Notes: generated by a model from the letters alone, not told the origin. A DNA stretch of 64,000 nt from Dokdonella sp. (GCF_051958935.1 NZ_JBQCFP010000197.1:6855-70854); one strand, 5' to 3'. Shown: positions 17,078 to 50,173, counted from the stretch's first letter. Numbers and translations are program-made.

Positions 17078-19613
<2,536 letters not shown>

Positions 19614-19617
<4 letters not shown>

Positions 19618-20177
19618 GGCGCCATCCACTCGGCCATCCAGGCCTTCGCGCGCTTGAGTTCGCGCTGCACGGTGCGCAGCGAGAGGCCGGTGAGCTCGAC
19701 CAGCTCGTCGCTGTCGAGGCCGATGAACCAATGCTGCTCGATCAGGCGCAGCAGGCGCGGGTCGACACGCTCGAGCAGCGCGAGCGCCTCGTCGAGCGCG
19801 AGCAATGCCTCGTCAATGTTGCCGTCATGCCCATCCGCCGGTGCGAATTCCACCGGCACGCCGCCGCCGCCGCGCTTCGCGCTCGCGCGGGCGCGTGCAT
19901 GGTCGATCACGATCTGGCGCATCACGCGTGCCGACAGCGCGAGGAAGTGCTCGCGCGTGAGGCGCGCATCGGTACCGTTCGCGGCGACGCGCGCGTACGC
20001 CTCGTGCACGAGCACGGTCGTCGACAGCGTCGCACCGGGGATGCGGCGGAACAACTGGCGGTGCGCGATGCGCTTGAGCTCGGCGTATACCTCCGGCAGC
20101 AGCGCGCGCAGGTCGCGCGCGTCACCGTAGCCGGCTTGCGCGAGACGCTCGGCGAGTTCGGCGTCGCTCGTCCCCAT
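19614..20177 (-). CDS. ECF-type RNA polymerase sigma factor (TIGR02999/ECF43-like, kinase-associated class)
   Basis: It starts at internal Met 25 of track ORF 19614..20249 (MGTSDAELAERL...). It has LVHEAYARV in region 2, MRQIVIDHARARASAKRGGG, and the region 4 HTH LSLRTVQRELKRAKAWM. Its stop overlaps the kinase ATG (ATGA). Confidence 0.85.
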
Positions 20178-20257
20178 CGCTGGCCCCGCGCCCCGCCGCG
20201 GTACGGCGGGCACGCTGGCGATTGTGGCGCGGGCGGTCGCGCTGCGCACGCGCGGGC

Positions 20258-26961: not shown

Positions 26962-27906
26962 TCAGCTGCCGAACTCATGCTCCGGCGAAGCAAAACCGAT
27001 CGTGACCGCGCCGGTGCCGACGTTGACCATGCCGGTCACGCTCATCGGCGCCTCGTACACCTCGACGCCGTGCTCGGCGCAGGTCTGCTTGAGCGACGCG
27101 TAGCCGGGCAGGGTGTCGAGTTCGTCGAGCTTGCCGCCGTAGCTCACGCATACCGTCGGCGTGAGCAGCCCCGCGCGCACGCGCCTGGCGATGTAGGCGA
27201 ACAGCGTCTCGGCGCCGTGGTCGAAACCACGCACCTTCGCCACCGGAGCAGTCGTGTTGCGGTAGCCGCGCAGCAGCGGCTTGATGTCGAGCGCGGTGCC
27301 GAGCGCGGCGCTGAACCAGCCGACGCTGCGATCGCCCTTTTTCTGCGCGCGGGCGCGCATGTAGTAGAGGTCGCGCACGATCATGTAGCCGAACGTGTTG
27401 TGCGCGATGTACTCGAGGCGCTCGCGCATCTGGCCCGGATTCATGCCGCTTTCGCGCAGGCGCACGGCTTCGACCGCGGTCACGCCGGTCGCGGCGAACA
27501 GGTTCTCCGAGTCGATCACGCGCATGAGGAACGGGCCGGGCACGCCGGCGTCGCGGCGGATCGGCCGGTAGTCGGTGAGGATCGCGAAGCTCGCCTTGCT
27601 CGCATTGGCGTGGATGCCGCTGCGTGAGGAAGCGATCGTGATGCAGAACACGCAGTCGTAGTCGACGACGAGGCGGCGCAGGAACAGGTCGCGGATCTCC
27701 TCGACGCCGAACGGCTCGGTCTCCGCCGCGTGCGCGCGCGTGCCGAGATCCTCGTCGAGGAAGCGCTGGCGCACCGCCGGGTCGCGATCGTCGACGAGGG
27801 TCGCCTCGTCGATGCGCGTGGTGATCGGTAGGATCGTGAAGCCGTGCCGGTGCAGGTAGTCGCCGGGCAGGTCGCAGGCCGAGTCCACCACGAAGCCGAT
27901 GCGCAT
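26962..27906 (-). CDS. DegV family (fatty-acid binding) protein
   Basis: Full track ORF. It begins MRIGFVVDSACDLP..., and its length and pattern are typical of DegV/DUF194. Confidence 0.8.
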   Translation of the reverse strand: MRIGFVVDSACDLPGDYLHRHGFTILPITTRIDEATLVDDRDPAVRQRFLDEDLGTRAHAAETEPFGVEEIRDLFLRRLVVDYDCVFCITIASSRSGIHANASKASFAILTDYRPIRRDAGVPGPFLMRVIDSENLFAATGVTAVEAVRLRESGMNPGQMRERLEYIAHNTFGYMIVRDLYYMRARAQKKGDRSVGWFSAALGTALDIKPLLRGYRNTTAPVAKVRGFDHGAETLFAYIARRVRAGLLTPTVCVSYGGKLDELDTLPGYASLKQTCAEHGVEVYEAPMSVTGMVNVGTGAVTIGFASPEHEFGS

Positions 27907-27987: not shown

Positions 27988-30474
<2,487 letters not shown>

Positions 30475-30982: not shown

Positions 30983-33418
30983 TCAGTCGAATCCGTTGCG
31001 GAACCCCACGTCGGGCAGCACGCCTCCGGGAACGGTGTAGCGCGCGATGACCCGGGCGCCGCTTTGCAGTTCGTAGGCGCCGTAAACGGCGCCGTCGTCG
31101 AGCATGCGCAACGCGTATGCACTCGCGTCGGTGCCCGCGTAAAAGCGCGCTCGGTCGGCCAATGTCTGCGGATCGAGCAGCAGCGGCCTGATGGTTTCCG
31201 CGGAAGCGAACTCGTCCATCAGGAAGCCGAGGGGCGCCGCCTGCTGGAAATAGCCGTAGGGGGCATCGTAGCGGATGACCTCGACGTGGCCCGTCGAGTC
31301 GATCAGGCGATAGATGAACTGGCCGGCGTCTTCGATCCTCGCAGTCGTGTCCAACAACCAACGCCCGTCGGACGTCGCGACGAGCTGCCACGGCTGCTCG
31401 TACGGGACGAGTTCGGCGAGGCCGATGTCATCGTCGGCCTGGCCATCGGCGTCGATGACGCGCATTCGCAAGCCATCGGGCGACGTCGCCGGCAACACGG
31501 CCGCGGTACGGCCTCCGGCATCCTGCGCGACCGCGATCGCGCTCGCATCGGGTTCCGGGAAGGTGTAACGCCATACCTGCGTGCCGTTCGCCGCAAGCCT
31601 CAGCAGCGTCAGATGCGTCGGGATACAACCCACCGTGCAGCCGCCGACGCCCTTCACCGCCACGAGCGTGTCGCCGTCGGGAAGGCGGCGCGCACTCTCG
31701 ATGACGTAGTTGCCGTCGGGAAGCGCGTGATCATGTATGCCCGTGTCGGAGCCGTCATCTCCTACGCGTTGCCATTTCAGCGGGGCAAACGCACCGGTGC
31801 GCAGGACGACAACGTCGCCGTCGCCGGGCAGCAGGCGGAACGGGTCGAAGTCCGACCCGGCGGCGCCCGATGCCACCTCGAAAGCAAGGTCGCCGTTCGC
31901 ATCGAAGCGTTGGATGTGCGTGCTGCCGCCCGGCAGCGTGAGCGACGGACGATCCCATCGAACCGCCCACGCCCCGCCATCGGCGGCGAGTACGGCGGAC
32001 GGCCACAGGCTTGCATCGGTGTAGTCGGCACACCAGGTGCACGCGTGCACGCGCCAGCGCAGATCGCCGTTCGGCGAGTACAGGGCCAGATGCGCATACG
32101 TGTCGACGAGAACGCCCGTATCCGTGCGCGCATCGAGTCCGGCCACCGAGGCCGGCACTTCGACGCCCCGGCAGGGCCGATCGAACCACGTCGCTTGGCC
32201 GGTGTCGTCGAGGTGTGCGACGCGCGGGTAGATCGCGCACGGATCGTCGGATGCAGCGGTGTCGCGCACGAGCAGCGATACCACGCCGTCGTCGTCGCGG
32301 CGTGCGCGGCTCGCATCGCCATTCGCCGCAGCGAGCGGCACGCTCCAGCGGCCGGTGCCGTTCGCATCGATGGCGATCGCTTCGATGCCGGCGACGCTTT
32401 TGCGGATCGCCACGACACCCTCGTCGAGCGCGACGAAGTCGCCGCCCGGCACCGACCACAGCGTCGATCCGGTCGCGGGATCGATGCGACGGACGATCGC
32501 GTCGTTGTCATAGCCGGCGAGCGCGTAGACGGCGCCACCACCGTCATGACCGACCTGGCGGTATTCGGTCACATCGGCGGCCGACCAGTACAGCAGGTGG
32601 CCGAGCGCGTCGTAACGCGCGTAGAAACCCAGGTTGCCGAAATTGCCGACCACGCGAACGCCGCCCGTACCTGGTACGTCGATGTCGGCCAGCTCCGCGG
32701 CGCCGCAGCCATGGCATGTAGACACGTCGGAAGACAGGAGCAGGCCACCGAAATCCAGTCGTGTGAGCGTCGCGGTCCCGTCGAGCCAACCGCCGCCGGA
32801 GCTGGCCACCCAGATCGCCTCGTCGGCAACGGCAAGATCGCCGCGGACGAAGGCGCTCGTCGCCGTTGGATCGGCCCAGGTCCAGCTGACCGAGCCATCG
32901 GCTTCGACGCGCGTCACCCGGTACCCTTGCATCGCGACGACCGAATCGTCGTCGAGCAGCGCCAGGCGCAGGCAGCTGCCTTGCACCAGGCAGCTCGATG
33001 CGGTCGGCAGCGAGAGCTTCCAGGAACGTTGCAGATCGGCGTCGAAGCGCATGACGACGGCCTCGCCCTGCGATCCGCCCGCGAGGACGTAGAACCCCGC
33101 GTCGTGGGCGGCGCGCACGGCCACCTCGGGAGTCTCCTGCGAAAGGGCGTCCTCGAGCCGTGTATCCAGTACGTGGCCGTCCGCTGCATACCGGCGCAGC
33201 ACGATCCGGCCCGGCGCTGCGGTGACGGCCACTTCACCACCGTCGGCGAGGCGCAGCGCGACCGGATCGCCGGATCCCGGCAGTCCATCGTACGCAAGCG
33301 CCTGTTCGGACAACGTCGTCGTCCACAGCGGCTGCAGCAGCGGCACGTCGCCCGCATGCAACGGGCCCGCAGCGAGCAGCAGCGCGACCCCTGCGGTCGA
33401 CACGCGTGCCATGCGCAT
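30983..33418 (-). CDS. Large secreted PQQ/BamB-like beta-propeller repeat protein, Cys-pair rich
   Basis: Full track ORF of 811 aa. The signal peptide is MRMARVSTAGVALLLAAGPLHA. Recurrent D/N-x-x-G-x-x-x-W strands occur (DPATGSTLWSV, DANGTGRWSV, AANGTQVWRY, SPNGDLRWRV). The C-terminus is VGFRNGFD. Confidence 0.75.
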   Translation of the reverse strand: MRMARVSTAGVALLLAAGPLHAGDVPLLQPLWTTTLSEQALAYDGLPGSGDPVALRLADGGEVAVTAAPGRIVLRRYAADGHVLDTRLEDALSQETPEVAVRAAHDAGFYVLAGGSQGEAVVMRFDADLQRSWKLSLPTASSCLVQGSCLRLALLDDDSVVAMQGYRVTRVEADGSVSWTWADPTATSAFVRGDLAVADEAIWVASSGGGWLDGTATLTRLDFGGLLLSSDVSTCHGCGAAELADIDVPGTGGVRVVGNFGNLGFYARYDALGHLLYWSAADVTEYRQVGHDGGGAVYALAGYDNDAIVRRIDPATGSTLWSVPGGDFVALDEGVVAIRKSVAGIEAIAIDANGTGRWSVPLAAANGDASRARRDDDGVVSLLVRDTAASDDPCAIYPRVAHLDDTGQATWFDRPCRGVEVPASVAGLDARTDTGVLVDTYAHLALYSPNGDLRWRVHACTWCADYTDASLWPSAVLAADGGAWAVRWDRPSLTLPGGSTHIQRFDANGDLAFEVASGAAGSDFDPFRLLPGDGDVVVLRTGAFAPLKWQRVGDDGSDTGIHDHALPDGNYVIESARRLPDGDTLVAVKGVGGCTVGCIPTHLTLLRLAANGTQVWRYTFPEPDASAIAVAQDAGGRTAAVLPATSPDGLRMRVIDADGQADDDIGLAELVPYEQPWQLVATSDGRWLLDTTARIEDAGQFIYRLIDSTGHVEVIRYDAPYGYFQQAAPLGFLMDEFASAETIRPLLLDPQTLADRARFYAGTDASAYALRMLDDGAVYGAYELQSGARVIARYTVPGGVLPDVGFRNGFD

Positions 33419-33558
33419 GGAGGCCTCCTTAATTCCGTCGAGCGTGCCACGAGAATATCAGGAGGCCAGCGCTTCCACGCCACCGTCACGCCGCCCGAGG
33501 GCGGCCTCGTATCCGATTCCACATCGATACCATGGGCCCGGAGCGGCTGCAGCGCGGA

Positions 33559-36285
33559 TCAGGATCCGTGGTCGTGCGCGAGCCCGAGCAGCGTCTCGTT
33601 CGCTTTCGCGGCCACCGTGTCGGCGGCGCCAGCCGCGCCGAGCCCCTCCACCGCCGTCCGCAGCAGCGGCTCGGCGGCGGCACGATCGCCGCGCCGGGCG
33701 AGCGCGAGGCCACGCAGCGCGTCGAGGCGGAATTTCCACCATCCGTCCGCCGCGCCAGCCTCCAGTGCCTTTGCGTCGAGCGTGCCGAGGCCTCGCATCG
33801 CGTCGTCGACGCGTCCGAGTTCGATCTCGGCCGCGGCGAGCCAGAACGCGGCAACCTGGCTTTGTGGATTGTCCGCGCCGAGTTGCGCGGCGAGCTTGGC
33901 CGCGGCCTCGCGCAACTTCGGCTCGGCGTCGCGCGTATCGCCCGACTCGTACAGGGCCTGGCCCCAGTTCGCGAGCGTGACCGCGGTGACGTTGTGCCCC
34001 GGGCCGAACAGCTTCCGAAATCCCTCGTGCACGCGCCGTGCGTAGTCGAGCGCGTGCGGCCAGTCTCGTCGCTTCATCGCGACGTCGAACAGGTCGCTCA
34101 GCACCATGAGATTGCGCGTGTGATCTTCGCCGAGGCGCTCGACGATCGTCTTCTGCGCCGCGAGCAGTCGTTCCTCGGCCTTCGCCGGATCGCCGCCCTG
34201 CGTCCAGGTGCGGGCGATCGCGGCCTGCGCGAAGGCGATCACGAGGGCGTTGTCGTCCGGGCGCGAACGCGCTTCGGCGATGAGGTCCTCGCCTTCCGCA
34301 CGTGCCTCGTCGAGATGGCCGGTCTGGGTGAGGGCCCCGATGAGGTCCATGCGCATCGAGTCGCGCAAGGTGAAATTGCCGGGGTCGGTAGCGCGCAGCA
34401 GCGGGATCGCGGTGCGGTACTCCGGTAGCGCCCTGGCGTAGTCGCCGCGGTTCATCGCGTCGAGGCCCCACGCCGACGCGCGCAGGAAGCGCAGGCGGGG
34501 ATCGGTCGAATCGCCGATCAGGCGATCGAGTGCGTGCAGGTGCTCGAGGGACTCGTCGAACTTGCCCGTGCGCGTGAGCAGGCGCGCGAGCAGGGTGCGC
34601 GCCTCGAGTGCATCGCGGCTCGCCTCGCCTTCCTCGCGCACGTACAGCGCGAGCGCGCGCCGTGCCTCGTCTTCGGCTTCGGGCAGCCGATCGATCATGT
34701 TGAGCAGCATCGCAAGGCTCGTGCGGATCGACGCTTCGGCGAGCGGCTGCGCGGCGAAGCGCGTCGCGATGCGCGCGCGCGCGCCGAGCAGCACGTCCTT
34801 GAGCGACGCATCGCCACCCTTTGACAGCACGAGCGGATTGGATCGCCCGATGAGGTCCTCGTTGAGGAAGCGATTGATCGCGTTCGCGCGCCCGAGCTCG
34901 CGCCGCGCGTCGTCGCGCGCACGCGTGGCCGCGATCCACAGGCCGAGCGCAAGGGCGAGACCGGCGATGAGCGCACCGACGAGCGCGATCACGTACGGCC
35001 GGCGCGCGCGGCTGCGTGCGACGGCCTCGCGCGCTTCGCGCGCACGCTGCTCGGACAGTGCGCCGGCCGCGCGCGCCTCGCGCCGCGCTTCGAGGCTGCG
35101 CAGGCGTGCGGCGAGTGTGGCCGCGCTCGCGAGGCGTCTTTGCGGCTCGCCGTCCGTCGCCAGGCGGATGTCTTCGCGCAGCAGCTCGTCGTCGACGTCG
35201 CGCTCCCAGCCGGACGCCATCGGCCGGGCGAGGTCGCCGGCGACGAGCTGGTACAGCATGACGCCGAGCGCATAGACGTCGCTGCGCACGGTCGGTGCCT
35301 GCCCGGCGAACAGCTCGGGCGCGACGTAGAGCGCGGTGCCCGCGGTCGAGTCGGTCGCGACATCGCGCGCGGTCGCGGGCCCGAGCCGCGTGATGCCGAG
35401 TTCGGCGAGGCGCTCGGGGTCGACGAGATGGCCGCTGCCGAAGTCGGTCAGGCGAACGTGCGGCGTGCCGCCGCGACCATCGACGAGCACGTTCGCGGGC
35501 TTCAGGTCCTTGTGGAGCACGCCGACGCCGTGGGCAGCCGCGACCGCATCGACGATCTGCAGGAACAGCGCGAGGCGCGCCTCGGTGCCGGTCGCGGCAA
35601 GCGACGCACCCGCCCACTCGAGCAGGTTGTCGCCACCGTATTCGCATTCGAGGAAGAACGGCGGCTGTTCGAAGTTCCAGTCGATGATGTCGACGAAGTG
35701 GCCGCCCTCGTCGAGGCTCTCGCGCAGCACGCGGGCGAGCGTCGCCTCGCGCTTGAGCGCGCGCAGGCGCTCGCCGTCGGCGCCGAACTTGTAGACGCGC
35801 AGCACGTGCGTCTTCGCCTGTTCGGCGAGCCAGACCTCGCTGCCGCGATTCACGCCGAGCGCGCGCCGCAGGGTGAAATTCGGTCGCCCGGGGACGGGCC
35901 GGCCGGCTGCGAGTTCGAGCCGGCTGTCGATGCGCCGGCCGACCGCGACGCGCGCGACCTCGCCGTCGAGGCGGTAGCCGACGCGTGCCTGCGTCACCAG
36001 GCGCTCCGCGTTCGCCTCGCCGAGCGCGCGCCGGAGCTTGGCGATCGCATTGGGCAGCACCTTGTCGACGGTCACGCGACCGGCCCACACCTCGCGCAGC
36101 AGTTCTTCCTTGGTCACCACCTCGCCCGCATGGCGCAGCAGGTAGGCGAGCACGTCAAGCGCGCGTCGCTCGACCTCGACCGGCAGGTCGGCCACGCGCA
36201 GTTCGAAGCGCGCCTCGTCGAACTCGGCGCTGCCGAAACGATAGCGGTAAGCATGCGGCTCGCGCAGGTCGGAAGCGTCGGTCAT
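33559..36285 (-). CDS. Fusion protein: OmpR/CadC-type winged-helix DNA-binding domain, Hanks Ser/Thr kinase, TM segment and TPR repeats
   Basis: Full track ORF of 908 aa. The wHTH domain is YRFGSAEFDEARFELRV...ELLREVWAGR...RVGYRL. The kinase has HKDLKPANVLV, DFGSG and VAPE. The TM segment is YVIALVGALIAGLALALGLWIAA. An ANAINRFLNEDL juxtamembrane motif and TPR-like repeats follow. Confidence 0.9.
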   Translation of the reverse strand: MTDASDLREPHAYRYRFGSAEFDEARFELRVADLPVEVERRALDVLAYLLRHAGEVVTKEELLREVWAGRVTVDKVLPNAIAKLRRALGEANAERLVTQARVGYRLDGEVARVAVGRRIDSRLELAAGRPVPGRPNFTLRRALGVNRGSEVWLAEQAKTHVLRVYKFGADGERLRALKREATLARVLRESLDEGGHFVDIIDWNFEQPPFFLECEYGGDNLLEWAGASLAATGTEARLALFLQIVDAVAAAHGVGVLHKDLKPANVLVDGRGGTPHVRLTDFGSGHLVDPERLAELGITRLGPATARDVATDSTAGTALYVAPELFAGQAPTVRSDVYALGVMLYQLVAGDLARPMASGWERDVDDELLREDIRLATDGEPQRRLASAATLAARLRSLEARREARAAGALSEQRAREAREAVARSRARRPYVIALVGALIAGLALALGLWIAATRARDDARRELGRANAINRFLNEDLIGRSNPLVLSKGGDASLKDVLLGARARIATRFAAQPLAEASIRTSLAMLLNMIDRLPEAEDEARRALALYVREEGEASRDALEARTLLARLLTRTGKFDESLEHLHALDRLIGDSTDPRLRFLRASAWGLDAMNRGDYARALPEYRTAIPLLRATDPGNFTLRDSMRMDLIGALTQTGHLDEARAEGEDLIAEARSRPDDNALVIAFAQAAIARTWTQGGDPAKAEERLLAAQKTIVERLGEDHTRNLMVLSDLFDVAMKRRDWPHALDYARRVHEGFRKLFGPGHNVTAVTLANWGQALYESGDTRDAEPKLREAAAKLAAQLGADNPQSQVAAFWLAAAEIELGRVDDAMRGLGTLDAKALEAGAADGWWKFRLDALRGLALARRGDRAAAEPLLRTAVEGLGAAGAADTVAAKANETLLGLAHDHGS

Positions 36286-36345
36286 GTGGAAATTTCGAAG
36301 CGGGGCATCTGTTTGCGCAAGGGTGGCGCAGCCGTGCGAGGGCCG

Positions 36346-36363
36346 CGTTACCCAATCGTTACC
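36346..36363. promoter_or_regulatory. Direct repeat CGTTACC-N4-CGTTACC (11-bp period), a candidate winged-helix operator
   Basis: The exact sequence is CGTTACCCAATCGTTACC. It lies in the divergent region between the wHTH-kinase gene (start 36285) and the secreted-protein gene (start 36524). Confidence 0.4.
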
Positions 36364-36523
36364 GCGGCGATGACGAAACGGGCCGCCTGCACGCGACCCC
36401 CTACGCTAGCATGATCCACGCGCGCACTACGCGCCTCCTCGTACCACTAAATGAACCGGCTGCCCTGCATCCGGCGAGGTGGCTGTGCGCGTCCGCAAAA
36501 CCCCTGAGCCGAGGAATGGAACC

Positions 36524-38173
36524 ATGTCGATCAAACCATCCGCCGTCGCCGCCGCCGTCGCGTGCGCCCTCGTCCATGCTTCACCCGCCGCTGCACAGGC
36601 CGTGGCGTGGCGCGCGGTAGCCGGGCAATCCGGCAGCGTCGCCGTCGCGAACCTGCCCCCGGGCGTGGACCGCTCGTACTCGGACGTCTCGATCGGCAGC
36701 GCCGGTGCGGGGATGGTCGGGATGCGCGTGAGTTCGCCGAGCGCGAGCAGCGGCTACTGGGCGCGGCGCAACGGCGTGCTCTCACGCTACGTGCAGGCGG
36801 GCGTCACCGGCCCGCTCGGCCCCGGACGTGGCGCCGGCGAAACCCAGCACGTGTTCCTCTCATACCAGGGCGGCTGGAGCGAAGCAGGCCCCGATGGGCA
36901 GCGCGTGTTCGCCGCGCGTGCGGGCGACCCCGCGCTCGGCGACGCACAGGCGAGCTGGGGTCTGTGGCGATGGGACGGGACGAAGAACGTCGAGATCGCG
37001 CGCGTGCTCACCGACGGCGCGCTCGGCCCCGGCCTCGGCGCGGGATGGCGCTTCCAGAACTCGCCCGAGTTCGCGGGCGCGCGCATGGTTGGCGGCGGGC
37101 GCGCGCTGCTCGTTGGCACGGTGACGACGCCGTCCACTGCGACGCGCGACGTGGTCGTACTGCATGACCCGGGCACGGGCAACGTACCGTGCGCGCTCGA
37201 GGACTCGACCGATCCCACATTGGCGCCGGGCCTCGTCGCCGGCGACTCGTTCCCTGCCGACTGGAACGGTTCGCTCAGCGTATTCGCGGTAAGCGCCGAG
37301 GGCGCCATCTACGCGCGCCTGCAGACGAGCAATTCGCGCGGTGGCATCTGGCAGCTGTGCGACGGCGCGCCGCGCGCACTCGTCGCCGACGACGACACCG
37401 GCGCGCTCGGGCCGGAACTCGGCGTCGAGACCGCGTACTTCTCCTCCGTCTACGGGCCACCCAAGCCGGCCGACGCCGGTCGCGTGTTCTTCGTCGCGAC
37501 GGGACGCGTCGCCGTGGGCGGCGCGAGCTTCGGGGGCCTGTTCCACCACGATGCGAACGGCAACTGGCCGCTCGCGCTCAATGGCGACACCGGTGCGTAT
37601 TCGCCGCACTGGCTCGACGCGACCTTCACCTCCGTCGACGAGTCCACGCTGACCGCAGCGGGCGAATGGGCCGCGTTCGAGGCCACCCTGCATACCGGCG
37701 ACGGTGCCTCGCCGGTGGGCCTGTTCCGCGTGCGGCCGGGCGAGGCACCCGAGCCCGTCGCAATCATCGGTGCCGACGTACCGTATGCGCCCGAGCCCAA
37801 TCGCATCTGGTCCAGCCTGCGCGCGAGCGCGGTGCTGGCGAACGGCGACATCGTGCTGGAAGCCTACACGAACCCGGACAATGAATACGCGCTGTGGCTC
37901 CTCAAGCGCGGCGAAGCGCCGCGCCGCGTGTTGCGCGCCGGCGATGTCGCATGGGTACCGACCGCGGCGGGCAACGTACAGGCGGCCATCACGAGCTTCA
38001 CCCCGGCGGGAGGCGCGGGCGTGGCGCAATACGACCGCGGTGGCGATTCGTGGATCGGCGCGGACGGCACGATCCTCGTCTCGGCGTCAGTCAATGGCTA
38101 CGGCTCGGTGCTGCTGATGGCGACGCCGTCGAATCCGATCGATCTGATCTTCCGCAACGGGTACGACGGCTAG
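36524..38173 (+). CDS. Secreted repeat protein (resembles the choice-of-anchor NxxGxxAF / DUF7453-type tandem repeat family)
   Basis: It starts at internal Met 16 of track ORF 36479..38173 (MSIKPSAVAAAVACALVHASPAAAQA is the signal peptide). Recurrent [DNA]-x-G-x-hydrophobic-hydrophobic-x-A strands occur (ANGDIVLEAY, ADGTILVSAS, AEGAIYARL). The C-terminus is DLIFRNGYDG. Confidence 0.7.
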   Translation: MSIKPSAVAAAVACALVHASPAAAQAVAWRAVAGQSGSVAVANLPPGVDRSYSDVSIGSAGAGMVGMRVSSPSASSGYWARRNGVLSRYVQAGVTGPLGPGRGAGETQHVFLSYQGGWSEAGPDGQRVFAARAGDPALGDAQASWGLWRWDGTKNVEIARVLTDGALGPGLGAGWRFQNSPEFAGARMVGGGRALLVGTVTTPSTATRDVVVLHDPGTGNVPCALEDSTDPTLAPGLVAGDSFPADWNGSLSVFAVSAEGAIYARLQTSNSRGGIWQLCDGAPRALVADDDTGALGPELGVETAYFSSVYGPPKPADAGRVFFVATGRVAVGGASFGGLFHHDANGNWPLALNGDTGAYSPHWLDATFTSVDESTLTAAGEWAAFEATLHTGDGASPVGLFRVRPGEAPEPVAIIGADVPYAPEPNRIWSSLRASAVLANGDIVLEAYTNPDNEYALWLLKRGEAPRRVLRAGDVAWVPTAAGNVQAAITSFTPAGGAGVAQYDRGGDSWIGADGTILVSASVNGYGSVLLMATPSNPIDLIFRNGYDG

Positions 38174-38225: not shown

Positions 38226-38253
38226 GCGGCGGCGCAGGTGCCTGCGCCGCCGC
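38226..38253. terminator. Perfect 13-bp GC hairpin between convergent genes
   Basis: GCGGCGGCGCAGG, a TG loop and CCTGCGCCGCCGC form the hairpin. The T-run lies on the 5' side only (CATTTT), so this is not a canonical intrinsic terminator in either direction. Confidence 0.35.
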
Positions 38254-38264
38254 TGTCAGCGGTG

Positions 38265-38432
38265 CTAGACGCCCGGACCGCGGCGACCCATGACCAACGA
38301 CACGACGAACAGGACGAGGAACACGAGGAACAGGATCTTCGCGATCGACGCCGCGGTGCCGGCAATGACGCCGAAGCCGAGCACGCCTGCGATGAGCGCG
38401 ATCACCAGAAAAACGATGGCGTAGTGGAGCAT
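38265..38432 (-). CDS. DUF1328 / UPF0391 small membrane protein
   Basis: It is the 55-aa tail of track ORF 38265..38546 ([47 protein letters not shown]...). AAGGAGAA lies upstream. Confidence 0.85.
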
Positions 38433-38633
38433 GCGATTCTCCTTGCAGTGGATTCCGTGCGATCGCTGCTGCAAGCGCAGGCGCGCATCGCAGGTCCAAG
38501 GTGGCGCGATGCGGGTGAATGCGTAGTGACCCGTGCGGCGCACCATTCAGCGCGCGGATGGCCGTGGCTGCAGGGAGCGCTGTGTTACCCTCGCGCCCCC
38601 GAGAAATCGCGTACCACCGACCCGAGGAACGCC

Positions 38634-39593
38634 ATGAAAAAGCTCGCCTGCCTGCTTCCGCTCGCACTCGCCCTCGCCGCCTGCGGCGCGAACGAATCGT
38701 CCGCGCCGGTTGCGACGGCGCCGCATCCGGCCATGCCGGCCAAGACGCCCGCACCTGCACCCGCCGACCAGCCGGCGCAGCCGACGCCGCCGCAGAGCGC
38801 GAACGAGCTGCTCGGCGCGAAGCTCGACGGCATCCTCGCCGGTGACTGGCGCTCGGCCGCGAACAAGGCACGCGACCAGTACCGCCATCCGAAGCAGACG
38901 CTCGAGTTCTTCGGCCTCAAGGCGGGCGACACGGTGATCGAAATCACGCCGGGCGGCGGCTGGTACACCGAGATCCTCGCGCCGCTCATGAAGGGCAACG
39001 GCACCTACATCGCGGCCGTGGCCAAGCCGACGCGTCCGGACGGCGAGGCGGCGACCGACAAGGCCAAGCTCGAGCAGCGTTTCGCCGCCGACGCCGAGCG
39101 TTATGGCGAGGCGAAGACGGTCGAGTTCGACGGCAAGGCGCCGGTGTTCGGCGAGCCGAATTCGGCCGACGTCGTCGTCACGTTCCGCAACGTGCACAAC
39201 TGGGCCGTCGGCGGCACCGCCGAGGCGAAGTTCAAGGCGTTCTTCGACGTGCTCAAGCCGGGCGGCGTGCTCGGCGTGACCGACCATCGCGCGGCGCCGG
39301 ACGCGGATTTCGAGAAGATCAAGAATTCCGGCTACCTGCCGCAGGAGATGGTCGTGAAGTTCGCGACCGATGCGGGCTTCAGGCTGGTCCAGACGAGCGA
39401 GATCAACGCCAATCCGAAGGACACCAAGGATTACGAGAAGGGCGTGTGGACGCTGCCGCCGACGCTCGAACTCGGTGACAAGGACAAGGACAAGTACCTC
39501 GCGATCGGCGAGTCGGACCGCATGACGCTGAAGTTCGTCAAGCCGGGCCCGGACACGATCTTCCGCCAGCCGGACCAGGCGCAGAAGCACTGA
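38634..39593 (+). CDS. Lipoprotein with a class I SAM-dependent methyltransferase-like fold
   Basis: It starts at the internal Met of track ORF 38238..39593 ([18 protein letters not shown] contains the lipobox). A Pro-rich linker and then the motif I-like [17 protein letters not shown] follow. Confidence 0.8.
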
Positions 39594-44032: not shown

Positions 44033-46567
44033 TCACGTCCCGCGCGGCTTCGCGCGATGCGTCGGCACCGCGGTCCAAGGATCGTCCGGCCATGGATGCT
44101 TCGGATAACGGCCCTTGAGCTCCTTCTTCACCTCCGGATACGTGCGCTCCCAGAAGCTGCGCAGGTCCTGCGTGACCTGCACCGGTTTGCCGCCCGGCGA
44201 GAGCAGGTGCAGGGTCAACGGCACGCGGCCGCCGCCGATGCGCGGCGTGTCGGCGAGGCCGAACAGTTCCTGCAGCTTCACCGCGAGCACCGGTGCCGCG
44301 CCGTCGGCGTAAGCGATGCGGCGTTCCATCCCGCTCGGCACGCGCAGTGCGACCGGCGCCTGTTCGTCGAGCGCGCGACGCTGCGTGAAATCGATGCGCG
44401 CGGCGAGCGCTTCGGAAAGTTCCGCCGCCTGCAGCGCGTCGAGCCGGCGCTTGCCGGCGAGATACGGCGCGAGCCATTCCTCGAGCGAGGCGAGCAGGGC
44501 CGCGTCGGAGAAATCCGGCAGGCCGAGTTCGGGACACCAGCCGCGCAGTGCGTTCACGCGCAGGCGCAGCTCGCGCGCGTGTTCGCTCCAGGGCAGCGCG
44601 TCGAGACCGAGTTCGCGCACCGCGGCGAGCAATGCAGGCACGGCGTCCTCGGGTCGCGCGGGCACGCTGCGGCGCTCGAGCACGATCGCGTCGAAGTGGC
44701 GCTGCTCGAACGCGTCGACCGCGCGCGTGTCGCGGTTCCATCGCACGCTGCGTTCGCGCACGAGGCGATCGGCGAAATCACGCTCGAGCAGTGCCGGATC
44801 GAACGGCGCGGCGGCGTAGACGAGGCTGTCGCGGTCCTCCTGCCGCAGGTCGACGACGACGAGCCAAGGTTCGCCGTACAACGCGCTGTCGTCGGCGAGG
44901 CGCGCGCCGCGGCCGTTGGCGAGCGTGTAGCGGCGCGGATTGGCGGGGTCCTGTTTGGCGATGCGATCGGGGAATGCGTGCACGAGCACGTCGCCGACGG
45001 CGGTCGTGGATGCGACGGCATCGCGGTTGAGGTCGATGCCACGATCGCGTGGATCGCCGCTGCGACGACGCCAGGCGTCGGCGGCTTGAGCGACGCTCGC
45101 GAGTGCACCGGCATCGGCCCCGCCGGCGCGCGCGGCATCGCGATCGCGCCCGCGCCACGCCTGCAGTGCGGCGACACGCGCGCGGAAATCGTCGTTGCGC
45201 GCGGCGTCACCGCGCAGCGGATTGCGCGCTTCGACCAGCGCGACGACGTCGCAGGCGAGCGCGGCGTGGGTCGGGTCCGCGCGCAACACCGCGGCGGCGA
45301 GGCGCGGCGTCGCACCGAAATCGAGCATGCGCCGGCCGAGCGGCGCGAGGCGGCCTTCGGCATCGAGCGCGCCGAGCCGGCGCAGCAGATCTCGCGCCTG
45401 CGCGAGCGCGCCTGCGGGCGGTGCATCCAGCCAGTGCAACGCGTCGCTGCCCCAGGCGGCGAGTTCGAGCGCGAGCTGCGACAGCTCGACCTGCGCGATC
45501 TCGGGCGTGCGCTCGGCCTCGAGCCGGCGGCTCTGCGGCCACAGCCGGTATGCATGCCCCGGGCCGAGGCGCCCGGCGCGACCGGCGCGCTGGTCTGCCG
45601 ATGCCTGCGAGACCGCTGCGGTGTCCAGCCGGGTGAAACCGCTGTTCGGGTCGAACCGTGGCTCGCGCGCGAGGCCGAGATCGACCACCGCGCGCACGCC
45701 GGGCAGGGTCAGGCTCGATTCCGCGACATTCGTCGCGAGCACGACGCGGCGGCGCCCCGTGGCCGCGCCGGCGAGCGCGGCGTGCTGCTCGGCGAGCGCG
45801 AGGTCGCCGTGCAGCGGCACCCGCTCGACGTCGCCCGGGAGATCGGCAAGGCTCGCGCGCACGCGCTCGATCTCGCGCTTGCCCGGCAGGAACACGAGCA
45901 CGTCACCGTCGCTGTCGGCGAGTGCCGATTCGATCGCCCGGCGCACACCGAACGGCCAGCCGCGTTCGGGCCATGCCTCGCCGCTGCGCGCGGGTGGATG
46001 CACGATGCGCACCGGATGACTACGCCCTTCGCTCGCGAGGCGTGGCGCATCGAACCAGCGCGCGACGCGCTCGCCGTCGAGCGTCGCCGACATGATCACG
46101 AGGCGCAGGTCCGGGCGCAGGTTCGCCTGCACGTCCAGCGCGAGCGCGGCGCCGAGGTCGCCGTGCAGGTGGCGCTCGTGGAACTCGTCGAACAGGATCG
46201 CGCCGACGCCGGTGAGCTCCGGGTCGTCCTGGATCATGCGAGTGAGGATGCCCTCGGTGACGACCTCGATGCGCGTCGCCGCCGACACGCGGCTTTCGAA
46301 ACGGATGCGATAGCCGACGCGTTCGCCGACGCGCTGTCCGGCCTGTGCGGCCATGAACTCGGCCGCCGCGCGCGCGGCGATGCGGCGCGGCTCGAGCAAC
46401 AGCACCTTGCGGCCACCGAGCCAGTCCGCGTCGAGCAGCGCCGGCGGCACGCGCGTGGTCTTGCCTGCACCGGGCGGTGCCTCGAGCACGAGGCGCGTGC
46501 GTGCCGCGAGCGTCGCGAGCAGCTCGGGCAGGACCGCGTCGATCGGTTGCGGCGAAGCAGGGGGCAT
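44033..46567 (-). CDS. hrpB: ATP-dependent RNA helicase HrpB (DEAH box)
   Basis: It starts at internal Met 157 of track ORF 44033..47035 (MPPASPQPIDAVLPELL...). It has APPGAGKTTRVP, DEFHER, SATL, TNVAESSLT and QRAGRAGR, plus the HrpB C-terminal domain. Confidence 0.93.
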   Translation of the reverse strand: MPPASPQPIDAVLPELLATLAARTRLVLEAPPGAGKTTRVPPALLDADWLGGRKVLLLEPRRIAARAAAEFMAAQAGQRVGERVGYRIRFESRVSAATRIEVVTEGILTRMIQDDPELTGVGAILFDEFHERHLHGDLGAALALDVQANLRPDLRLVIMSATLDGERVARWFDAPRLASEGRSHPVRIVHPPARSGEAWPERGWPFGVRRAIESALADSDGDVLVFLPGKREIERVRASLADLPGDVERVPLHGDLALAEQHAALAGAATGRRRVVLATNVAESSLTLPGVRAVVDLGLAREPRFDPNSGFTRLDTAAVSQASADQRAGRAGRLGPGHAYRLWPQSRRLEAERTPEIAQVELSQLALELAAWGSDALHWLDAPPAGALAQARDLLRRLGALDAEGRLAPLGRRMLDFGATPRLAAAVLRADPTHAALACDVVALVEARNPLRGDAARNDDFRARVAALQAWRGRDRDAARAGGADAGALASVAQAADAWRRRSGDPRDRGIDLNRDAVASTTAVGDVLVHAFPDRIAKQDPANPRRYTLANGRGARLADDSALYGEPWLVVVDLRQEDRDSLVYAAAPFDPALLERDFADRLVRERSVRWNRDTRAVDAFEQRHFDAIVLERRSVPARPEDAVPALLAAVRELGLDALPWSEHARELRLRVNALRGWCPELGLPDFSDAALLASLEEWLAPYLAGKRRLDALQAAELSEALAARIDFTQRRALDEQAPVALRVPSGMERRIAYADGAAPVLAVKLQELFGLADTPRIGGGRVPLTLHLLSPGGKPVQVTQDLRSFWERTYPEVKKELKGRYPKHPWPDDPWTAVPTHRAKPRGT

Positions 46568-46613
46568 GGTGGCCGTGATGCACGCGCTGGGCGCGCATTG
46601 TAGGCGGCAGCGC

Positions 46614-46668: not shown

Positions 46669-47859
46669 TTACTCGCAGGTCATGCCGTTGGGCGTGAACA
46701 GGCGCTCGTAGGTGGTGACGCCGCTGATCGTCGGGATCGGGTTCGGCAGGTTCGCGTTCGGCGTGAACGTGACGTCGAGGTGGTTGCAGTCGGCGACTTC
46801 GAATTTCGCCTTGCCATACGGCAGCTGTTCGAGGCCGTTGCCGAGATAGTTGACGTTGACGTTGATGCTGGTCTGGCCGACCGCGAAAGGCGCGTTGCCG
46901 ACGAGCCAGAGCGGATCGCCGTTGAGGTCTTCGGTCAGCAGGTCGAATACGAGCTGGCGCACCGTCGAGCCGTTCGACTGCGGCTGTTCGGTCATCTGCA
47001 CGAGCAGGCCTTCGTTGAACTCGGTGTTGATCCACTGCGCGGCTGAGTAGCCGTCGAGCGGCAGCGGCGCGAACGCATCCGGGTAGGTGCCCTGCGCGGG
47101 CAGGTAGGCCGGCACGTTGAATTCGACGATGTCGCCGTTGCTGCCGGTGTACGGATTGATCTGCAGCTTGTACGCGTAGCTGTAGAAGTGCTGGTAGTCG
47201 GCATCGAAGTTGTAGTTCTCGAGCACGAACGTGGTGCTCGAGAACACCGGCGTGTCGAACAGGAAGTCGGACATGTACGTGTTCGGCTCGGTCGCCGAGC
47301 GCACGTAGCTCTCCGGATCGTCGTACGCGGTGTTGCCCTGTTGGATGCGCAGCGACGGGTAGGTCGGGAAGTAGTCGGTATGGCCTTCATTGGCGCTGTC
47401 GCGGTCGATGCGCAGCAACGTCATCGAGTTGTAGCCGCCGTCGGTGTTGTACGGCGTCTCCGAGCCCGAGCTGCTGCAGGCGATGCGCCACAGCGTCATC
47501 GTCACGGTTTCCGGATTGAGCACCTGGCCGGCCGAATTGCGCGTGTACAGCCTGACGCGTGCCGTCTGGGTCGGGCCGCTCGCCTTGTTCGGCAGCGGCC
47601 ATGCGGCGCAGCTCGGCGGATAGGCGCGGAACTCGTTCGCCAGCGGGGTCCCCGGGTAGATGTCGTTGCCCATCGCCTTGGCGCGCTTGGCGGCATTCGC
47701 CTTCGCCTCGTTGGCGGCGGAGTCCAGCGCGGCGCGGATCTGGGTCGCCGCCGCGTCGTGGGCGGCGCGGACGTCGTCCGGCGTCGCAGTGGCTGCGAGC
47801 GCGGGCAGGGTGGCGACGCCTGCGGCCAGGGTGAGCATCAGGCGGAGCGTGCTTTTCAT
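46669..47859 (-). CDS. Secreted protein of unknown function, paralog A
   Basis: It starts at the internal Met of track ORF 46669..48117 (MKSTLRLMLTLAAGVATLPALA is the signal peptide). It resembles the 48830..50011 product along its whole length. The C-terminus is NHLDVTFTPNANLPNPIPTI...RLFTPNGMTCE. Confidence 0.75.
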   Translation of the reverse strand: MKSTLRLMLTLAAGVATLPALAATATPDDVRAAHDAAATQIRAALDSAANEAKANAAKRAKAMGNDIYPGTPLANEFRAYPPSCAAWPLPNKASGPTQTARVRLYTRNSAGQVLNPETVTMTLWRIACSSSGSETPYNTDGGYNSMTLLRIDRDSANEGHTDYFPTYPSLRIQQGNTAYDDPESYVRSATEPNTYMSDFLFDTPVFSSTTFVLENYNFDADYQHFYSYAYKLQINPYTGSNGDIVEFNVPAYLPAQGTYPDAFAPLPLDGYSAAQWINTEFNEGLLVQMTEQPQSNGSTVRQLVFDLLTEDLNGDPLWLVGNAPFAVGQTSINVNVNYLGNGLEQLPYGKAKFEVADCNHLDVTFTPNANLPNPIPTISGVTTYERLFTPNGMTCE

Positions 47860-47992
47860 GGTGGTTCCCCAAGTTGGACCGCGCGAGCTTCCCCGGGCGG
47901 CAATGAATTCGCGGTGAACCGCACCGGATGCGAGCCCGGCGCAGAGTGCGCATAATCGCGCGTTTGCATCGCCGGATGAAGAGCCACCCGAC

Positions 47993-50011: not shown

Positions 50012-50173
50012 TCTGTCTCCCAGGGATATGCGGATCGCAGGCGATCGGCGGCGGCGCATCTTCGCACGCCTGCCCGCCCGGGTCGCCGCATCTGCGCGCA
50101 CGTGCAGGGTGCACGCGGCGAAAGGGAGACGGCCCGGCGCGCGCGAGCGTCGCAGCGCGCCGGCCCACGTGCA

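What the first reader, a model, noticed from the sequence alone, without database searches (positions are those of the whole stretch)
33559..36285. Membrane-tethered one-component regulator: OmpR/CadC-type winged helix fused to a Hanks kinase, a TM segment and an extracytoplasmic TPR array
A single 908-aa ORF contains four parts in order. First comes a ToxR/CadC-like DNA-binding domain (aa 12-105). Second comes a complete Hanks kinase (roughly aa 135-400). Third comes one TM helix at about aa 437-460. Fourth comes about 440 aa of TPR-like repeats. The juxtamembrane motif (ANAINRFLNEDL) and the TPR part resemble the ECF-linked kinase at 17074..19617 (AINRALRDYL). This protein therefore looks like the same sensor-kinase chassis with the DNA-binding output fused in cis instead of supplied by a separate sigma factor. 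Whether the kinase autophosphorylates the wHTH domain to control DNA binding is unknown to me.
Basis: partly seen in the sequence, partly recalled or inferred. Interest (0 to 1): 0.65.

Follow-up and report, generated by a model that had tools for sequence, protein, structure and literature searches.

The report
Membrane transcription factor with built-in kinase
A single 908-residue membrane protein of a soil Dokdonella joins a DNA-binding domain, a eukaryote-type protein kinase and an outside sensor. It belongs to a large uncharacterised family that always sits beside its own conserved DNA site, so the whole signalling route can now be tested directly.

Summary
The ORF 33559..36285 lies on the minus strand and encodes 908 aa. 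In order it has an OmpR/PhoB-type winged helix (aa 11-117), a Hanks kinase (134-396), one TM helix (431-453) and a TPR superhelix (484-907). It is not an assembly artefact: hundreds of about 900-aa homologues are colinear, and independent metagenome contigs tile it without indels.

New here is a cis-element that travels with the gene. It consists of 11-bp-phased direct repeats (window 36346..36389, two perfect GGTAACG). A fixed distance away lies a TAnnnT -10-like hexamer (36407..36412, + strand) that points at the divergent gene 36524..38173, a secreted beta-propeller. Subfamilies use GTAACG, CTAACG or TTCAAG repeats, and the repeat type changes together with recognition-helix residues.

The best model is a ToxR/CadC-like membrane-bound activator that binds head-to-tail like PhoB at the -35 of the outward promoter. 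An embedded, probably active non-RD kinase couples the periplasmic TPR signal to DNA binding. The signal, the phosphorylation step and the sign of regulation are inferred, not shown.

The closest relatives of the chassis are the ECF43-linked kinases PknS/PknT. I found no paper on this family. I rate it a new variant of a known kind, of moderately high interest.

The parts
33559..36285 (-). Gene for the 908-aa wHTH-kinase-TM-TPR regulator (stop codon included)
   Evidence: ORF list and translation. GC3 0.88. Colinear homologues. Independent contigs carry no indels.
35935..36255 (-). OmpR/PhoB-type winged helix-turn-helix, aa 11-117. Recognition helix is TVDKVLPNAIAKLRRAL, wing is TQARVGYRL.
   Evidence: Pfam Trans_reg_C 8e-14. 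AF2 shows beta-sheet, three helices and a wing. Nearly invariant in 30 homologues.
35887..35934 (-). Short linker, aa 118-133, with the conserved VPGR..NF motif
   Evidence: Alignment A1. pLDDT dips at 118-121.
35098..35886 (-). Hanks-type Ser/Thr kinase domain, aa 134-396. It is non-RD (HKD), has a degenerate Gly loop and a family-specific activation-segment insert with conserved LGI(T/S).
   Evidence: Pfam Pkinase 5e-21. PDB profile and Foldseek hits to PknB, PknA, StkP and PknS. Catalytic residues are conserved in A1 and in 58-74 of 76 family members, depending on the motif.
34996..35097 (-). Charged cytoplasmic helix, aa 397-430, ending in RSRARRP (the positive-inside flank)
   Evidence: AF2 helix 398-424. 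Flank charges.
34927..34995 (-). Single transmembrane helix, aa 431-453 (YVIALVGALIAGLALALGLWIAA)
   Evidence: The only Kyte-Doolittle peak, 2.49. Part of the continuous AF2 helix 430-479.
34837..34926 (-). Periplasmic stalk and juxtamembrane motif, aa 454-483 (ELxRAxAINRFLNEDLIGRSNP)
   Evidence: Conserved in A1. AxxRF[LV] is present in 53 of 76 family members. Weak match to AINRALRDYLVG of the ECF-linked kinase.
33565..34836 (-). Periplasmic TPR superhelix, aa 484-907 (about 20 helices)
   Evidence: TPR_12, TPR_10 and TPR_19 hits. AF2 pLDDT above 90. Profile similarity to the TPR region of the ECF-linked kinase.
36346..36389 (-). Predicted operator: four 11-bp-phased direct repeats read on the minus strand. 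Unit 1 is caGGCGGCCCG, unit 2 tttcGTCATCG, unit 3 ccgcGGTAACG and unit 4 attgGGTAACG. The two perfect GGTAACG lie at 36357..36363 and 36346..36352.
   Evidence: GGTAACG occurs in 40 of 40 non-identical orthologous intergenic regions, always phased and in the same orientation. It is the only tandem site in the window. It is also present in Burkholderiales, Rudaea, Stenotrophomonas and Luteimonas loci. It co-varies with the recognition helix.
36407..36412 (+). TAGCAT, a -10-like hexamer (TAnnnT) of the predicted outward promoter. It lies 23-24 nt from the CACG-like end of unit 1, so the array abuts or overlaps the -35 position.
   Evidence: Position-specific across loci: 33 arrays at one offset and 8 more at +1, of 80 detected array anchors, against a mean of 0.7 at other offsets (alignments). 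No canonical -35/-10 promoter is found in the region.
36524..38173 (+). Predicted target: a divergent gene for a 549-aa secreted beta-propeller-like protein with a signal peptide, no Pfam or NCBIfam family, and a C-terminal IFxxGF(E/D) motif
   Evidence: Homologous gene in divergent position in 43 loci. 130 homologues, none with an informative name. AF2 pLDDT 88.6, pTM 0.87, all-beta. Only generic propeller matches in the PDB, TM 0.2-0.33.

Best explanation
This is a transmembrane transcription regulator of the ToxR/CadC type with a Hanks Ser/Thr kinase domain inserted between the DNA-binding domain and the membrane.

Shown:
- The N-terminal OmpR/PhoB-type winged helix and the kinase are on one side of a single TM helix. 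A 420-residue TPR superhelix is on the other side.
- Next to the gene lies a conserved module of three to four 11-bp-phased direct repeats. A -10-like TAnnnT hexamer at fixed spacing faces away from the regulator gene.
- The repeat sequence changes together with recognition-helix residues across subfamilies.

Inferred:
- Several protomers bind the repeats head-to-tail, as PhoB/OmpR-family domains do. They stand in for the missing -35 element of the outward promoter. In this genome that switches on the gene for a secreted beta-propeller protein. In other genomes the target is another envelope or surface protein.
- The periplasmic TPR domain binds a protein or peptide ligand and controls oligomerisation.
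- The kinase domains, brought together, autophosphorylate in trans. A conserved GI(T/S) in the activation-segment insert is a candidate site. This stabilises or licenses the DNA-binding oligomer.

My sub-confidences are: wHTH binds the repeats, 0.85; it regulates the outward gene, 0.7 (activation rather than repression, 0.6); the kinase is catalytically active, 0.7; phosphorylation gates DNA binding, 0.35.
For: Architecture and fold.

Topology: a single hydrophobic segment and a positively charged N-side flank. The same topology is described for PknS.

Real, conserved gene. There are 136 species-level genome hits in Lysobacterales, Nevskiales, Burkholderiales and some Alphaproteobacteria. 1,860 50%-cluster representatives score E<=1e-30.

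Operator:
- GGTAACG is in 40 of 40 orthologous intergenic regions, as 11-bp-phased direct repeats in one orientation.
- It occurs once in the 64-kb window as a tandem.
- It is also found upstream of the gene in distant genera whose divergent genes are unrelated.

The array follows the target, not only the regulator. In L022 and L063 it lies downstream of the regulator gene, in front of the beta-propeller-like gene. In Rudaea a second copy precedes a Big_3_5 gene.

Fixed-offset TAnnnT on the outward strand.

Specificity covariation:
- K75/N79 goes with GTAACG in 48 of 53 loci.
- H or N at 75 with T79 and a V99 wing goes with TTCAAG in 11 of 12.
- N or Q at 75 with N79 goes with CTAACG in 5 of 6.

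Kinase competence: the beta-3 Lys is found in 74 of 76 full-length members, HxD-KPxN in 71 and APE in 73. The stricter patterns for the alpha-C Glu (64) and DFGSG (58) match fewer.
Against: - No experiment exists. I found no RNA or ChIP data for this organism.
- The Gly-rich loop lacks the second glycine in every member, and Pfam does not align the N-lobe. ATP binding or catalysis could therefore be impaired.
- The two distal repeats are degenerate in this window (GGCCCG, GTCATCG).
- Only about half of the detected arrays show a TAnnnT at the exact offset.
- The array is nearly always upstream of the regulator gene too, so autoregulation cannot be separated from outward regulation by sequence alone.
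- The covariation counts are not phylogenetically independent.
- The relative placement of the domains in the AF2 model is uncertain (pTM 0.52).
Confidence: 0.6

Rival explanations
1. Bifunctional protein with two independent outputs. The wHTH regulates the neighbouring gene constitutively, or by oligomerisation alone. The kinase signals to other, unlinked substrates, and phosphorylation does not act on DNA binding.
For: Hanks kinases are usually pleiotropic (review). No Ser or Thr in the wHTH or linker stands out beyond those typical of OmpR-family domains. HKD (non-RD) kinases often do not depend on activation-loop phosphorylation.
Against: The kinase is physically inserted between the DNA-binding and membrane parts in every member, and the wHTH-kinase linker is short and conserved. 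No FHA protein or PP2C phosphatase was seen among the Pfam assignments of called neighbouring genes in the five loci looked up. In this window only part of the ORFs were scanned.
Confidence: 0.2
2. The kinase domain is a pseudokinase or nucleotide-binding scaffold. It serves only as a dimerisation and spacer module between the wHTH and the membrane.
For: The Gly-rich loop is degenerate in all members. Pfam matches only profile positions 59-196. The N-lobe is divergent.
Against: The beta-3 Lys, HxD-KPxN, APE and the Ser/Thr-specific GT are kept in about 70 or more of 76 members across subfamilies that are only 43-45% identical overall. That pattern indicates selection for catalysis.
Confidence: 0.12
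3. The repeat array is not this protein's operator. It is bound by another factor, or it is an ECF-type -35 element (GGTAAC resembles AAC-containing ECF -35 boxes) driving the regulator gene.
For: The array is oriented towards, and lies upstream of, the regulator gene in most loci. ECF43-type sigma/kinase pairs exist in the same genomes.
Against: There are three to four copies with strict 11-bp phasing, the signature of OmpR/PhoB-family sites. Nothing is conserved downstream of the last unit where a -10 for the regulator gene would lie. The repeat sequence co-varies with the recognition helix of this very protein. The array moves with the target gene in L022, L063 and the second Rudaea site.
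Confidence: 0.06

Closest known systems
ToxR / CadC / TcpP-type transmembrane transcription regulators (membrane-integrated one-component systems)
   Same: N-terminal cytoplasmic OmpR-family wHTH, a single TM helix, a periplasmic sensor, no receiver domain, and a target gene next door. The 2023 census of such regulators lists Trans_reg_C among the commonest DNA-binding domains (PMC10269533).
   Different: A complete Hanks kinase domain of about 260 aa replaces the short cytoplasmic linker, and the periplasmic domain is a TPR superhelix. It is not a CadC orthologue (NF007540: 43.5 bits against a cut-off of 400). In the census, Pkinase occurs in only 27 regulators (0.054%) and is not discussed.
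PknS-EcfK (Xanthomonas citri) and PknT-EcfP (Vibrio parahaemolyticus): ECF43 sigma factors activated by a transmembrane Hanks kinase
   Same: The same order of parts: an N-terminal extension, the kinase, a TM helix and periplasmic TPRs. The window's own PknS-like kinase (17074..19731) shares a colinear TPR region of about 280 aa with this family. The PknS kinase structure 9eed is among the best structural and sequence matches. The PknS architecture is described in PMC13147305.
   Different: The transcriptional output is fused in cis as a wHTH instead of being a separate sigma factor that gets phosphorylated. No ECF sigma gene is adjacent to this gene. The kinase is HKD, not HRD.
PhoB/OmpR response regulators at pho-box-type promoters
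   Same: The same DNA-binding fold. The predicted site is a set of direct repeats with 11-bp periodicity placed where the -35 element would be, upstream of a -10-like hexamer. The comparison with pho boxes rests on my own knowledge of PhoB.
   Different: There is no receiver domain or Asp phosphorylation. The protein is membrane-anchored. There are four units rather than two. PhoB equivalog models score far below their cut-offs.
EmbR/PknH and AfsR/AfsK: OmpR-family wHTH regulators phosphorylated by Hanks kinases
   Same: A Hanks kinase paired with a Trans_reg_C-type DNA-binding protein. AfsR/AfsK and EmbR are discussed in PMC1262709.
   Different: There the kinase and the regulator are separate proteins, and the regulators carry BTAD and FHA or NB-ARC domains. 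Here the two are one polypeptide, and no BTAD or FHA domain is present.
Bacteroides hybrid two-component systems and Vibrio cholerae ChiS (DNA-binding membrane sensor kinases)
   Same: The whole pathway from periplasmic sensor through a kinase to a DNA-binding domain sits in one membrane protein (PMC10269533; ChiS preprint 10.1101/2020.01.10.902320, listed).
   Different: Those use histidine kinase and receiver chemistry and AraC-type or other HTH domains. This protein uses a Ser/Thr kinase and an OmpR-type wHTH. No HisKA, HATPase_c or Response_reg hit was found.

Membership tests
OmpR/PhoB-type winged-helix DNA-binding domain (Pfam Trans_reg_C) | Profile match above the curated threshold | tested here: met
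   PF00486: 51.9 bits against a cut-off of 26.2, aa 35-106.
OmpR/PhoB-type winged-helix DNA-binding domain (Pfam Trans_reg_C) | Fold: N-terminal beta-sheet, three helices and a C-terminal beta-hairpin wing | tested here: met
   The AF2 elements E11-36, H40-51, H59-67, H76-93 and E96-106 have pLDDT of about 80-86.
OmpR/PhoB-type winged-helix DNA-binding domain (Pfam Trans_reg_C) | Binds tandem direct repeats spaced about one helical turn apart | tested here: inconclusive
   A conserved 11-bp-phased repeat array lies beside the gene and co-varies with the recognition helix. Binding itself was not measured.
ToxR/CadC-like transmembrane transcription regulators | Cytoplasmic N-terminal DNA-binding domain, one TM helix, periplasmic C-terminal sensor, and no receiver domain | tested here: met
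   No Response_reg hit.
ToxR/CadC-like transmembrane transcription regulators | Orthology to CadC, ToxR or HilA-type proteins | tested here: not met
   CadC NF007540 scores 43.5 against 400. HilA/EilA NF009037 scores 27.1 against 589. Only the wHTH matches.
ToxR/CadC-like transmembrane transcription regulators | Regulates transcription while anchored in the membrane | not testable with these tools
   This needs localisation and reporter experiments.
Hanks-type (eukaryote-like) Ser/Thr protein kinases | Profile match above threshold and a bilobal kinase fold | tested here: met
   PF00069: 75.7 bits against 31.7. Foldseek to PknB, PknA, PknI and PknS gives probability 1.0 and TM 0.6-0.7 on the target.
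Hanks-type (eukaryote-like) Ser/Thr protein kinases | Catalytic residues: beta-3 Lys, alpha-C Glu, catalytic-loop Asp and Asn, DFG, APE, and the GT of the P+1 loop | tested here: met
   K166, E180, D260, N265, D281-F-G, A322-P-E and G316-T are invariant in A1. They are present in 58-74 of 76 family members, depending on the pattern.
Hanks-type (eukaryote-like) Ser/Thr protein kinases | Gly-rich loop GxGxxG | tested here: not met
   The loop is LGVNRGSEVWLA. The second Gly is absent in all 30 aligned members.
Hanks-type (eukaryote-like) Ser/Thr protein kinases | RD kinase (Arg before the catalytic Asp) | tested here: not met
   HKD in 69 of 71 members in which the motif was found, HRD in 2. This is a non-RD subclass.
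Hanks-type (eukaryote-like) Ser/Thr protein kinases | Phosphotransfer activity | not testable with these tools
   This needs an in-vitro kinase assay.
ECF43-linked transmembrane kinases (PknS/PknT type) | Kinase, TM helix and periplasmic TPR (or other) sensor | tested here: met
   The TPR profile hits the window's PknS-like kinase at 50 bits, against -2.5 bits for the control.
ECF43-linked transmembrane kinases (PknS/PknT type) | Adjacent ECF43 sigma factor gene as the substrate | tested here: not met
   The neighbours are a beta-propeller gene, a PQQ_2-like gene and IDH. No sigma gene lies next to the gene in L001 or L004-L006. The ECF sigma at 19614..20249 has its own kinase.
PASTA kinases (Stk1/PknB family) | Equivalog score and extracellular PASTA repeats | tested here: not met
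   NF033483 scores 76 bits against a cut-off of 450, and there is no PASTA hit.
Hybrid two-component systems | HisKA, HATPase_c and receiver domains fused to an HTH | tested here: not met
   None of these domains was found.

The most novel reading that the evidence does not exclude
The family is the first example of a complete Ser/Thr-kinase signalling pathway in one polypeptide. Periplasmic TPR ligand binding drives trans-autophosphorylation of an embedded non-RD Hanks kinase. That phosphorylation gates the head-to-tail assembly of the fused wHTH domains on 11-bp repeats at a membrane-recruited promoter. A simple, readable recognition code links helix residues to the repeat sequence: residue 75, K against N/Q, selects G against C at the first base, and residue 79, N against T, selects TAACG against TTCAAG. 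The regulated secreted or surface protein may itself be the ligand of the TPR sensor, which would close a feedback loop.
Probability: 0.3. Interest if true: 0.78.

Novelty: new variant of a known kind. Interest (0 to 1): 0.62.

Why it matters
How bacterial Hanks kinases reach specific promoters is usually indirect and hard to map, because their substrates are many and unlinked. How membrane-anchored transcription factors find and activate their targets is also an open question.

This family puts sensor, kinase and DNA-binding domain in one chain. It comes with a predicted operator, a predicted target promoter and a natural set of specificity variants. Binding, phosphorylation and output can therefore be tested with a handful of constructs.

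The family is also large. 1,860 50%-identity clusters score E<=1e-30, and it is present in cultivable Delftia, Stenotrophomonas, Luteimonas, Tahibacter and Dokdonella. It is annotated only generically. Its targets are envelope and surface proteins, which points to a role in controlling the cell surface of soil and rhizosphere bacteria.

The modular wHTH-and-repeat code could also be useful as an orthogonal membrane-sensor part for synthetic biology.

Tried and rejected
- BLASTP against the ECF-linked kinase showed only kinase-core similarity. I replaced it with a profile test that had a control.
- The consensus sigma-70 promoter and terminator scan of 33380..36600 found nothing. This is expected for an activator-dependent promoter, so it argues neither way.
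- The downstream 811-aa PQQ_2-like gene (30983..33418) and the 451-aa gene after the beta-propeller were considered as conserved partners. I rejected them because they are conserved only in Dokdonella-like loci.
- NCBIfam and Pfam give no family for the beta-propeller target. Foldseek against the PDB gives only generic propeller matches with TM 0.2-0.33, so no function is assigned.
- My own GC3-based ORF calling failed in several lower-GC loci. The divergent genes of those loci therefore remain unidentified.
- Eight literature searches found no paper on this architecture. Only a count of 27 Pkinase-containing transmembrane regulators appears, in a supplementary table.
- No RNA runs were found for this organism. 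The runs that hold the sequence are listed as DNA or of unknown kind, so transcription starts could not be checked.
- The mis-assembly or frameshift hypothesis is rejected.
- The ECF -35 reading of GGTAAC is rejected as unlikely.
Full report
**Observation**

The 908-codon ORF is real, but it lies on the minus strand (33559..36285, ATG at 36285). The window has 70.5% G+C and the ORF has GC3 0.88, as expected of a true gene.

Pfam places three kinds of domain, all above their gathering scores:
- Trans_reg_C at aa 35-106 (8e-14).
- Pkinase at aa 196-353 (5e-21). Only profile positions 59-196 are matched.
- TPR_12, TPR_10 and TPR_19 between aa 518 and 840.

NCBIfam gives only sub-threshold matches to PknB, PknD, CadC and PhoB models, so the protein is an orthologue of none of them.

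An AlphaFold2 model built on 30 homologues has mean pLDDT 83. It shows:
- a winged helix at aa 11-117;
- a bilobal kinase at 134-396 with a disordered activation loop (301-325);
- a charged helix at 398-424;
- one continuous helix at 430-479 that contains the only hydrophobic segment (431-453);
- a TPR superhelix at 484-907 with pLDDT above 90.

Foldseek against the PDB returns PknB, PknA, PknI, Stk1 and Xanthomonas PknS kinase domains first.

**Is it a true fusion?**

Three lines of evidence say yes.
- The protein database holds more than 120 full-length homologues of about 900 aa with the same Pfam set. They come from Dokdonella (88% identity to D. fugitiva), Tahibacter, Rudaea, Chiayiivirga and many metagenomes.
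- A scan of one genome per species found 136 matches. They fall in Lysobacterales, Nevskiales, Burkholderiales (Delftia, Roseateles, Rubrivivax, Mitsuaria, Comamonas) and a few Alphaproteobacteria.
- An exhaustive search with aa 1-420 found 1,860 50%-identity cluster representatives at E<=1e-30. All 150 listed are colinear over wHTH plus kinase.

In addition, contigs of four runs from four studies (rhizosphere, soil and unlabelled metagenomes) tile the ORF across both domain junctions. They differ by substitutions only, with no indel inside the ORF.

**Kinase competence**

In the 30-sequence alignment the following are invariant: the beta-3 lysine (RVYK166F), the alpha-C glutamate (E180), the catalytic loop H-K-D-L-K-P-A-N (258-265), DFG (281-283), the GT of the P+1 loop (316-317) and APE (322-324). 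Across 76 full-length members taken from genomes they are found in 58-74 members, depending on the pattern.

Two features depart from the canon.
- The Gly-rich loop is LGxxxGSEVWLA, without the second glycine, in all members.
- The kinase is non-RD (HKD).

There is also a family-specific insert of about 14 residues in the activation segment, with a conserved LGI(T/S).

I read this as a probably active, atypical Hanks kinase. A pseudokinase would not be expected to keep every catalytic side chain across subfamilies that are only 43-45% identical.

**Surroundings and the conserved DNA element**

The gene downstream on the same strand (30983..33418, 811 aa, PQQ_2-like) is conserved only in close relatives.

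The divergent upstream gene is a different matter. It most likely starts at Met16, giving 36524..38173, and encodes a 549-aa protein with a signal peptide. A homologue occupies the same divergent position in 43 of the fetched loci.

Every one of the 40 non-identical intergenic regions contains GGTAACG. Anchoring on it reveals an array of four 11-bp-phased direct repeats, always on the strand of the regulator gene:
- gt.GGCACG
- ..cG.cAACG
- .cgCGGTAACG
- .aT.GGTAACG

In the window the two perfect units are 36357..36363 and 36346..36352. The two distal units are degenerate (GTCATCG, GGCCCG). This is the only tandem site in the 64 kb.

Background frequency of the heptamer in about 0.8 Mb of fetched loci is 0.18 per kb, arrays included.

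The same array lies upstream of the regulator gene in Rudaea, Burkholderiales, Stenotrophomonas and Luteimonas loci, where the divergent genes are unrelated. Those genes encode:
- a Big_3_5 protein with an IPTL-CTERM;
- Flg_new_2 repeat proteins;
- a CsgG/PG_binding lipoprotein;
- an autotransporter.

**Which promoter does it serve?**

Nothing is conserved downstream of the last unit, on the regulator side.

On the other side, a hexamer reading TAGCAT on the outward strand sits 23-24 nt from the CACG end of unit 1. Variants are TAGTAT, TAGACT, TAACAT and TAGGAT, so the general form is TAnnnT. Of 80 detected array anchors, 33 carry such a hexamer at one offset and 8 more at +1. The mean at any other offset is 0.7. 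In the window it is 36407..36412 on the + strand.

With a 17-nt spacer, the -35 position falls on unit 1. No canonical -35 exists there. From my own knowledge of the PhoB regulon, this is the layout of pho-box promoters.

Three loci break the usual linkage in an informative way.
- In Tahibacter soli (L022) and in L063, the array lies downstream of the regulator gene, directly in front of the beta-propeller-like gene and in the same relative orientation.
- In Rudaea a second array precedes a Big_3_5 gene.

The array therefore follows the outward target.

**Covariation**

A more distant subfamily (43-45% identity; Luteimonas, Thermomonas, Pseudoxanthomonas) has no GGTAACG. At the same place, orientation and phasing it has GTCCTCACG-nn-ACCTTCAAG-nn-ACCTTCAAG. 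A third group has CTAACG-N5-CTAACG.

The recognition helix and wing differ accordingly:

| Repeat type | Recognition helix | Wing |
|---|---|---|
| GTAACG | TVDKVLPNA | TQAR |
| TTCAAG | TVDHVLATA | TVPR |
| CTAACG | TV(D/E)NVLANA | TQ(A/P)R |

Over the non-duplicate full-length loci the pairing is as follows:

| Helix residues | Repeat | Loci |
|---|---|---|
| KxN | GTAACG | 48 of 53 |
| (H/N)xT | TTCAAG | 11 of 12 |
| (N/Q)xN | CTAACG | 5 of 6 |

These counts are not phylogenetically independent. Even so, they argue strongly that this wHTH, and not another factor, reads the repeats.

**The target**

The 549-aa protein has no Pfam or NCBIfam family. It has only 130 homologues, none with an informative name. 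It folds confidently (pLDDT 88.6, pTM 0.87) as an all-beta propeller-like structure with a disordered C-terminal IFxxGF(E/D) tail. The PDB offers only generic propeller matches.

In other genomes the outward genes encode OmpA-domain, CsgG-like, RCC1-repeat, MORN/ankyrin, autotransporter or Ig-like proteins. The common theme is envelope or surface proteins.

**Relation to the ECF-linked kinase**

The pair 19614..20249 (Sigma70_ECF, PF07638) and 17074..19731 (Pkinase, TM helix, TPR_12) is of the PknS/EcfK (ECF43) type. In that system a transmembrane kinase with periplasmic TPRs phosphorylates its sigma factor (PMC13147305).

BLASTP sees only the kinase core in common. A profile of this family's TPR region, however, aligns colinearly over about 280 residues with that kinase, at 50 bits. 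An unrelated TPR_12-GGDEF protein scores -2.5 bits. The juxtamembrane AINRxL match is weak (E 0.018).

**Mechanism**

The parts, the topology, the operator module and the covariation are shown.

The following are inferred.
- Protomers assemble head-to-tail on the repeats at the -35 of the outward promoter and activate it from the membrane.
- The TPR domain senses a periplasmic protein or peptide.
- Ligand-controlled proximity triggers trans-autophosphorylation, which licenses DNA binding.

Three rivals remain, in descending order of likelihood: independent kinase output, a pseudokinase scaffold, and an operator that belongs to another factor.

**Novelty**

Transmembrane wHTH regulators, Hanks receptor kinases with TPR sensors, and wHTH regulators phosphorylated by Hanks kinases (EmbR, AfsR) are each known. 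The fusion is only counted: 27 Pkinase-containing transmembrane regulators appear in a supplementary table. It is named generically in databases. Eight full-text searches found no paper on it.

I rate it a new variant of a known kind, with interest 0.62. The operator, the target promoter and the recognition code found here make it directly testable.

Noticed in passing
window 17074..20249 (minus strand): An ECF sigma factor (Sigma70_ECF PF07638, 19614..20249) is followed by a Pkinase-TM-TPR_12 kinase (17074..19731 as listed; the true start is probably near 19617). This is a PknS/EcfK-like (ECF43) pair. A similar pair lies about 3.6 kb downstream of the regulator homologue in Rudaea (L003 13342..16730).
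   Followed up: partly
L007 (Dokdonella fugitiva RH2WT43) 2110..3986: The regulator is 88% identical to the window's. The divergent beta-propeller is only 50% identical, and the array is degenerate (one GGTAACG, then GTCCACG). The target and the operator turn over much faster than the regulator.
   Followed up: partly
window 36479..36523: The listed GTG start at 36479 of the divergent gene is probably wrong. Homologues start at Met16 (36524), and one metagenome contig has a 2-nt deletion at 36500 that would break the longer frame.
   Followed up: partly
window 30983..33418 (minus) and 38238..39593 (plus): Two further genes flank the module. One encodes an 811-aa PQQ_2/BamB-like repeat protein 140 bp downstream of the regulator. 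The other encodes a 451-aa protein after the beta-propeller gene, with no family. Both are conserved only in Dokdonella-like loci, and their function is unknown.
   Followed up: partly
window 36524..38173, C-terminus; alignment A3: The secreted beta-propeller ends in a conserved, disordered D.IF..GF(E/D) tail. This could be a sorting signal or the peptide recognised by the regulator's periplasmic TPR domain. No known C-terminal sorting-signal model matched.
   Followed up: no
L019 and L031 (Rudaea sp. 3F27F6), L027 and L085 (a Dokdonella MAG), L062 and L077 (Panacagrimonas MAG): Several genomes carry two paralogues of the regulator. Where arrays were found, the paralogues belong to different repeat-specificity classes (for example GTAACG at L027 and TTCAAG at L085). 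This suggests insulated parallel circuits.
   Followed up: partly
window 51088..58301 (minus strand): A chaperone-usher fimbrial cluster, with the usher carrying PapC_C at 54628..57018. Elsewhere in the window are a monomeric isocitrate dehydrogenase (28012..30474), DegV (26962..27906), a P-type ATPase (10769..13303) and a FixG-like ferredoxin (2531..4459). This is ordinary chromosomal context.
   Followed up: no
window 44057..46603 (+), 46669..48117 (-), 48830..50101 (-): Three large ORFs with high GC3 and no Pfam family. They were not examined further.
   Followed up: no
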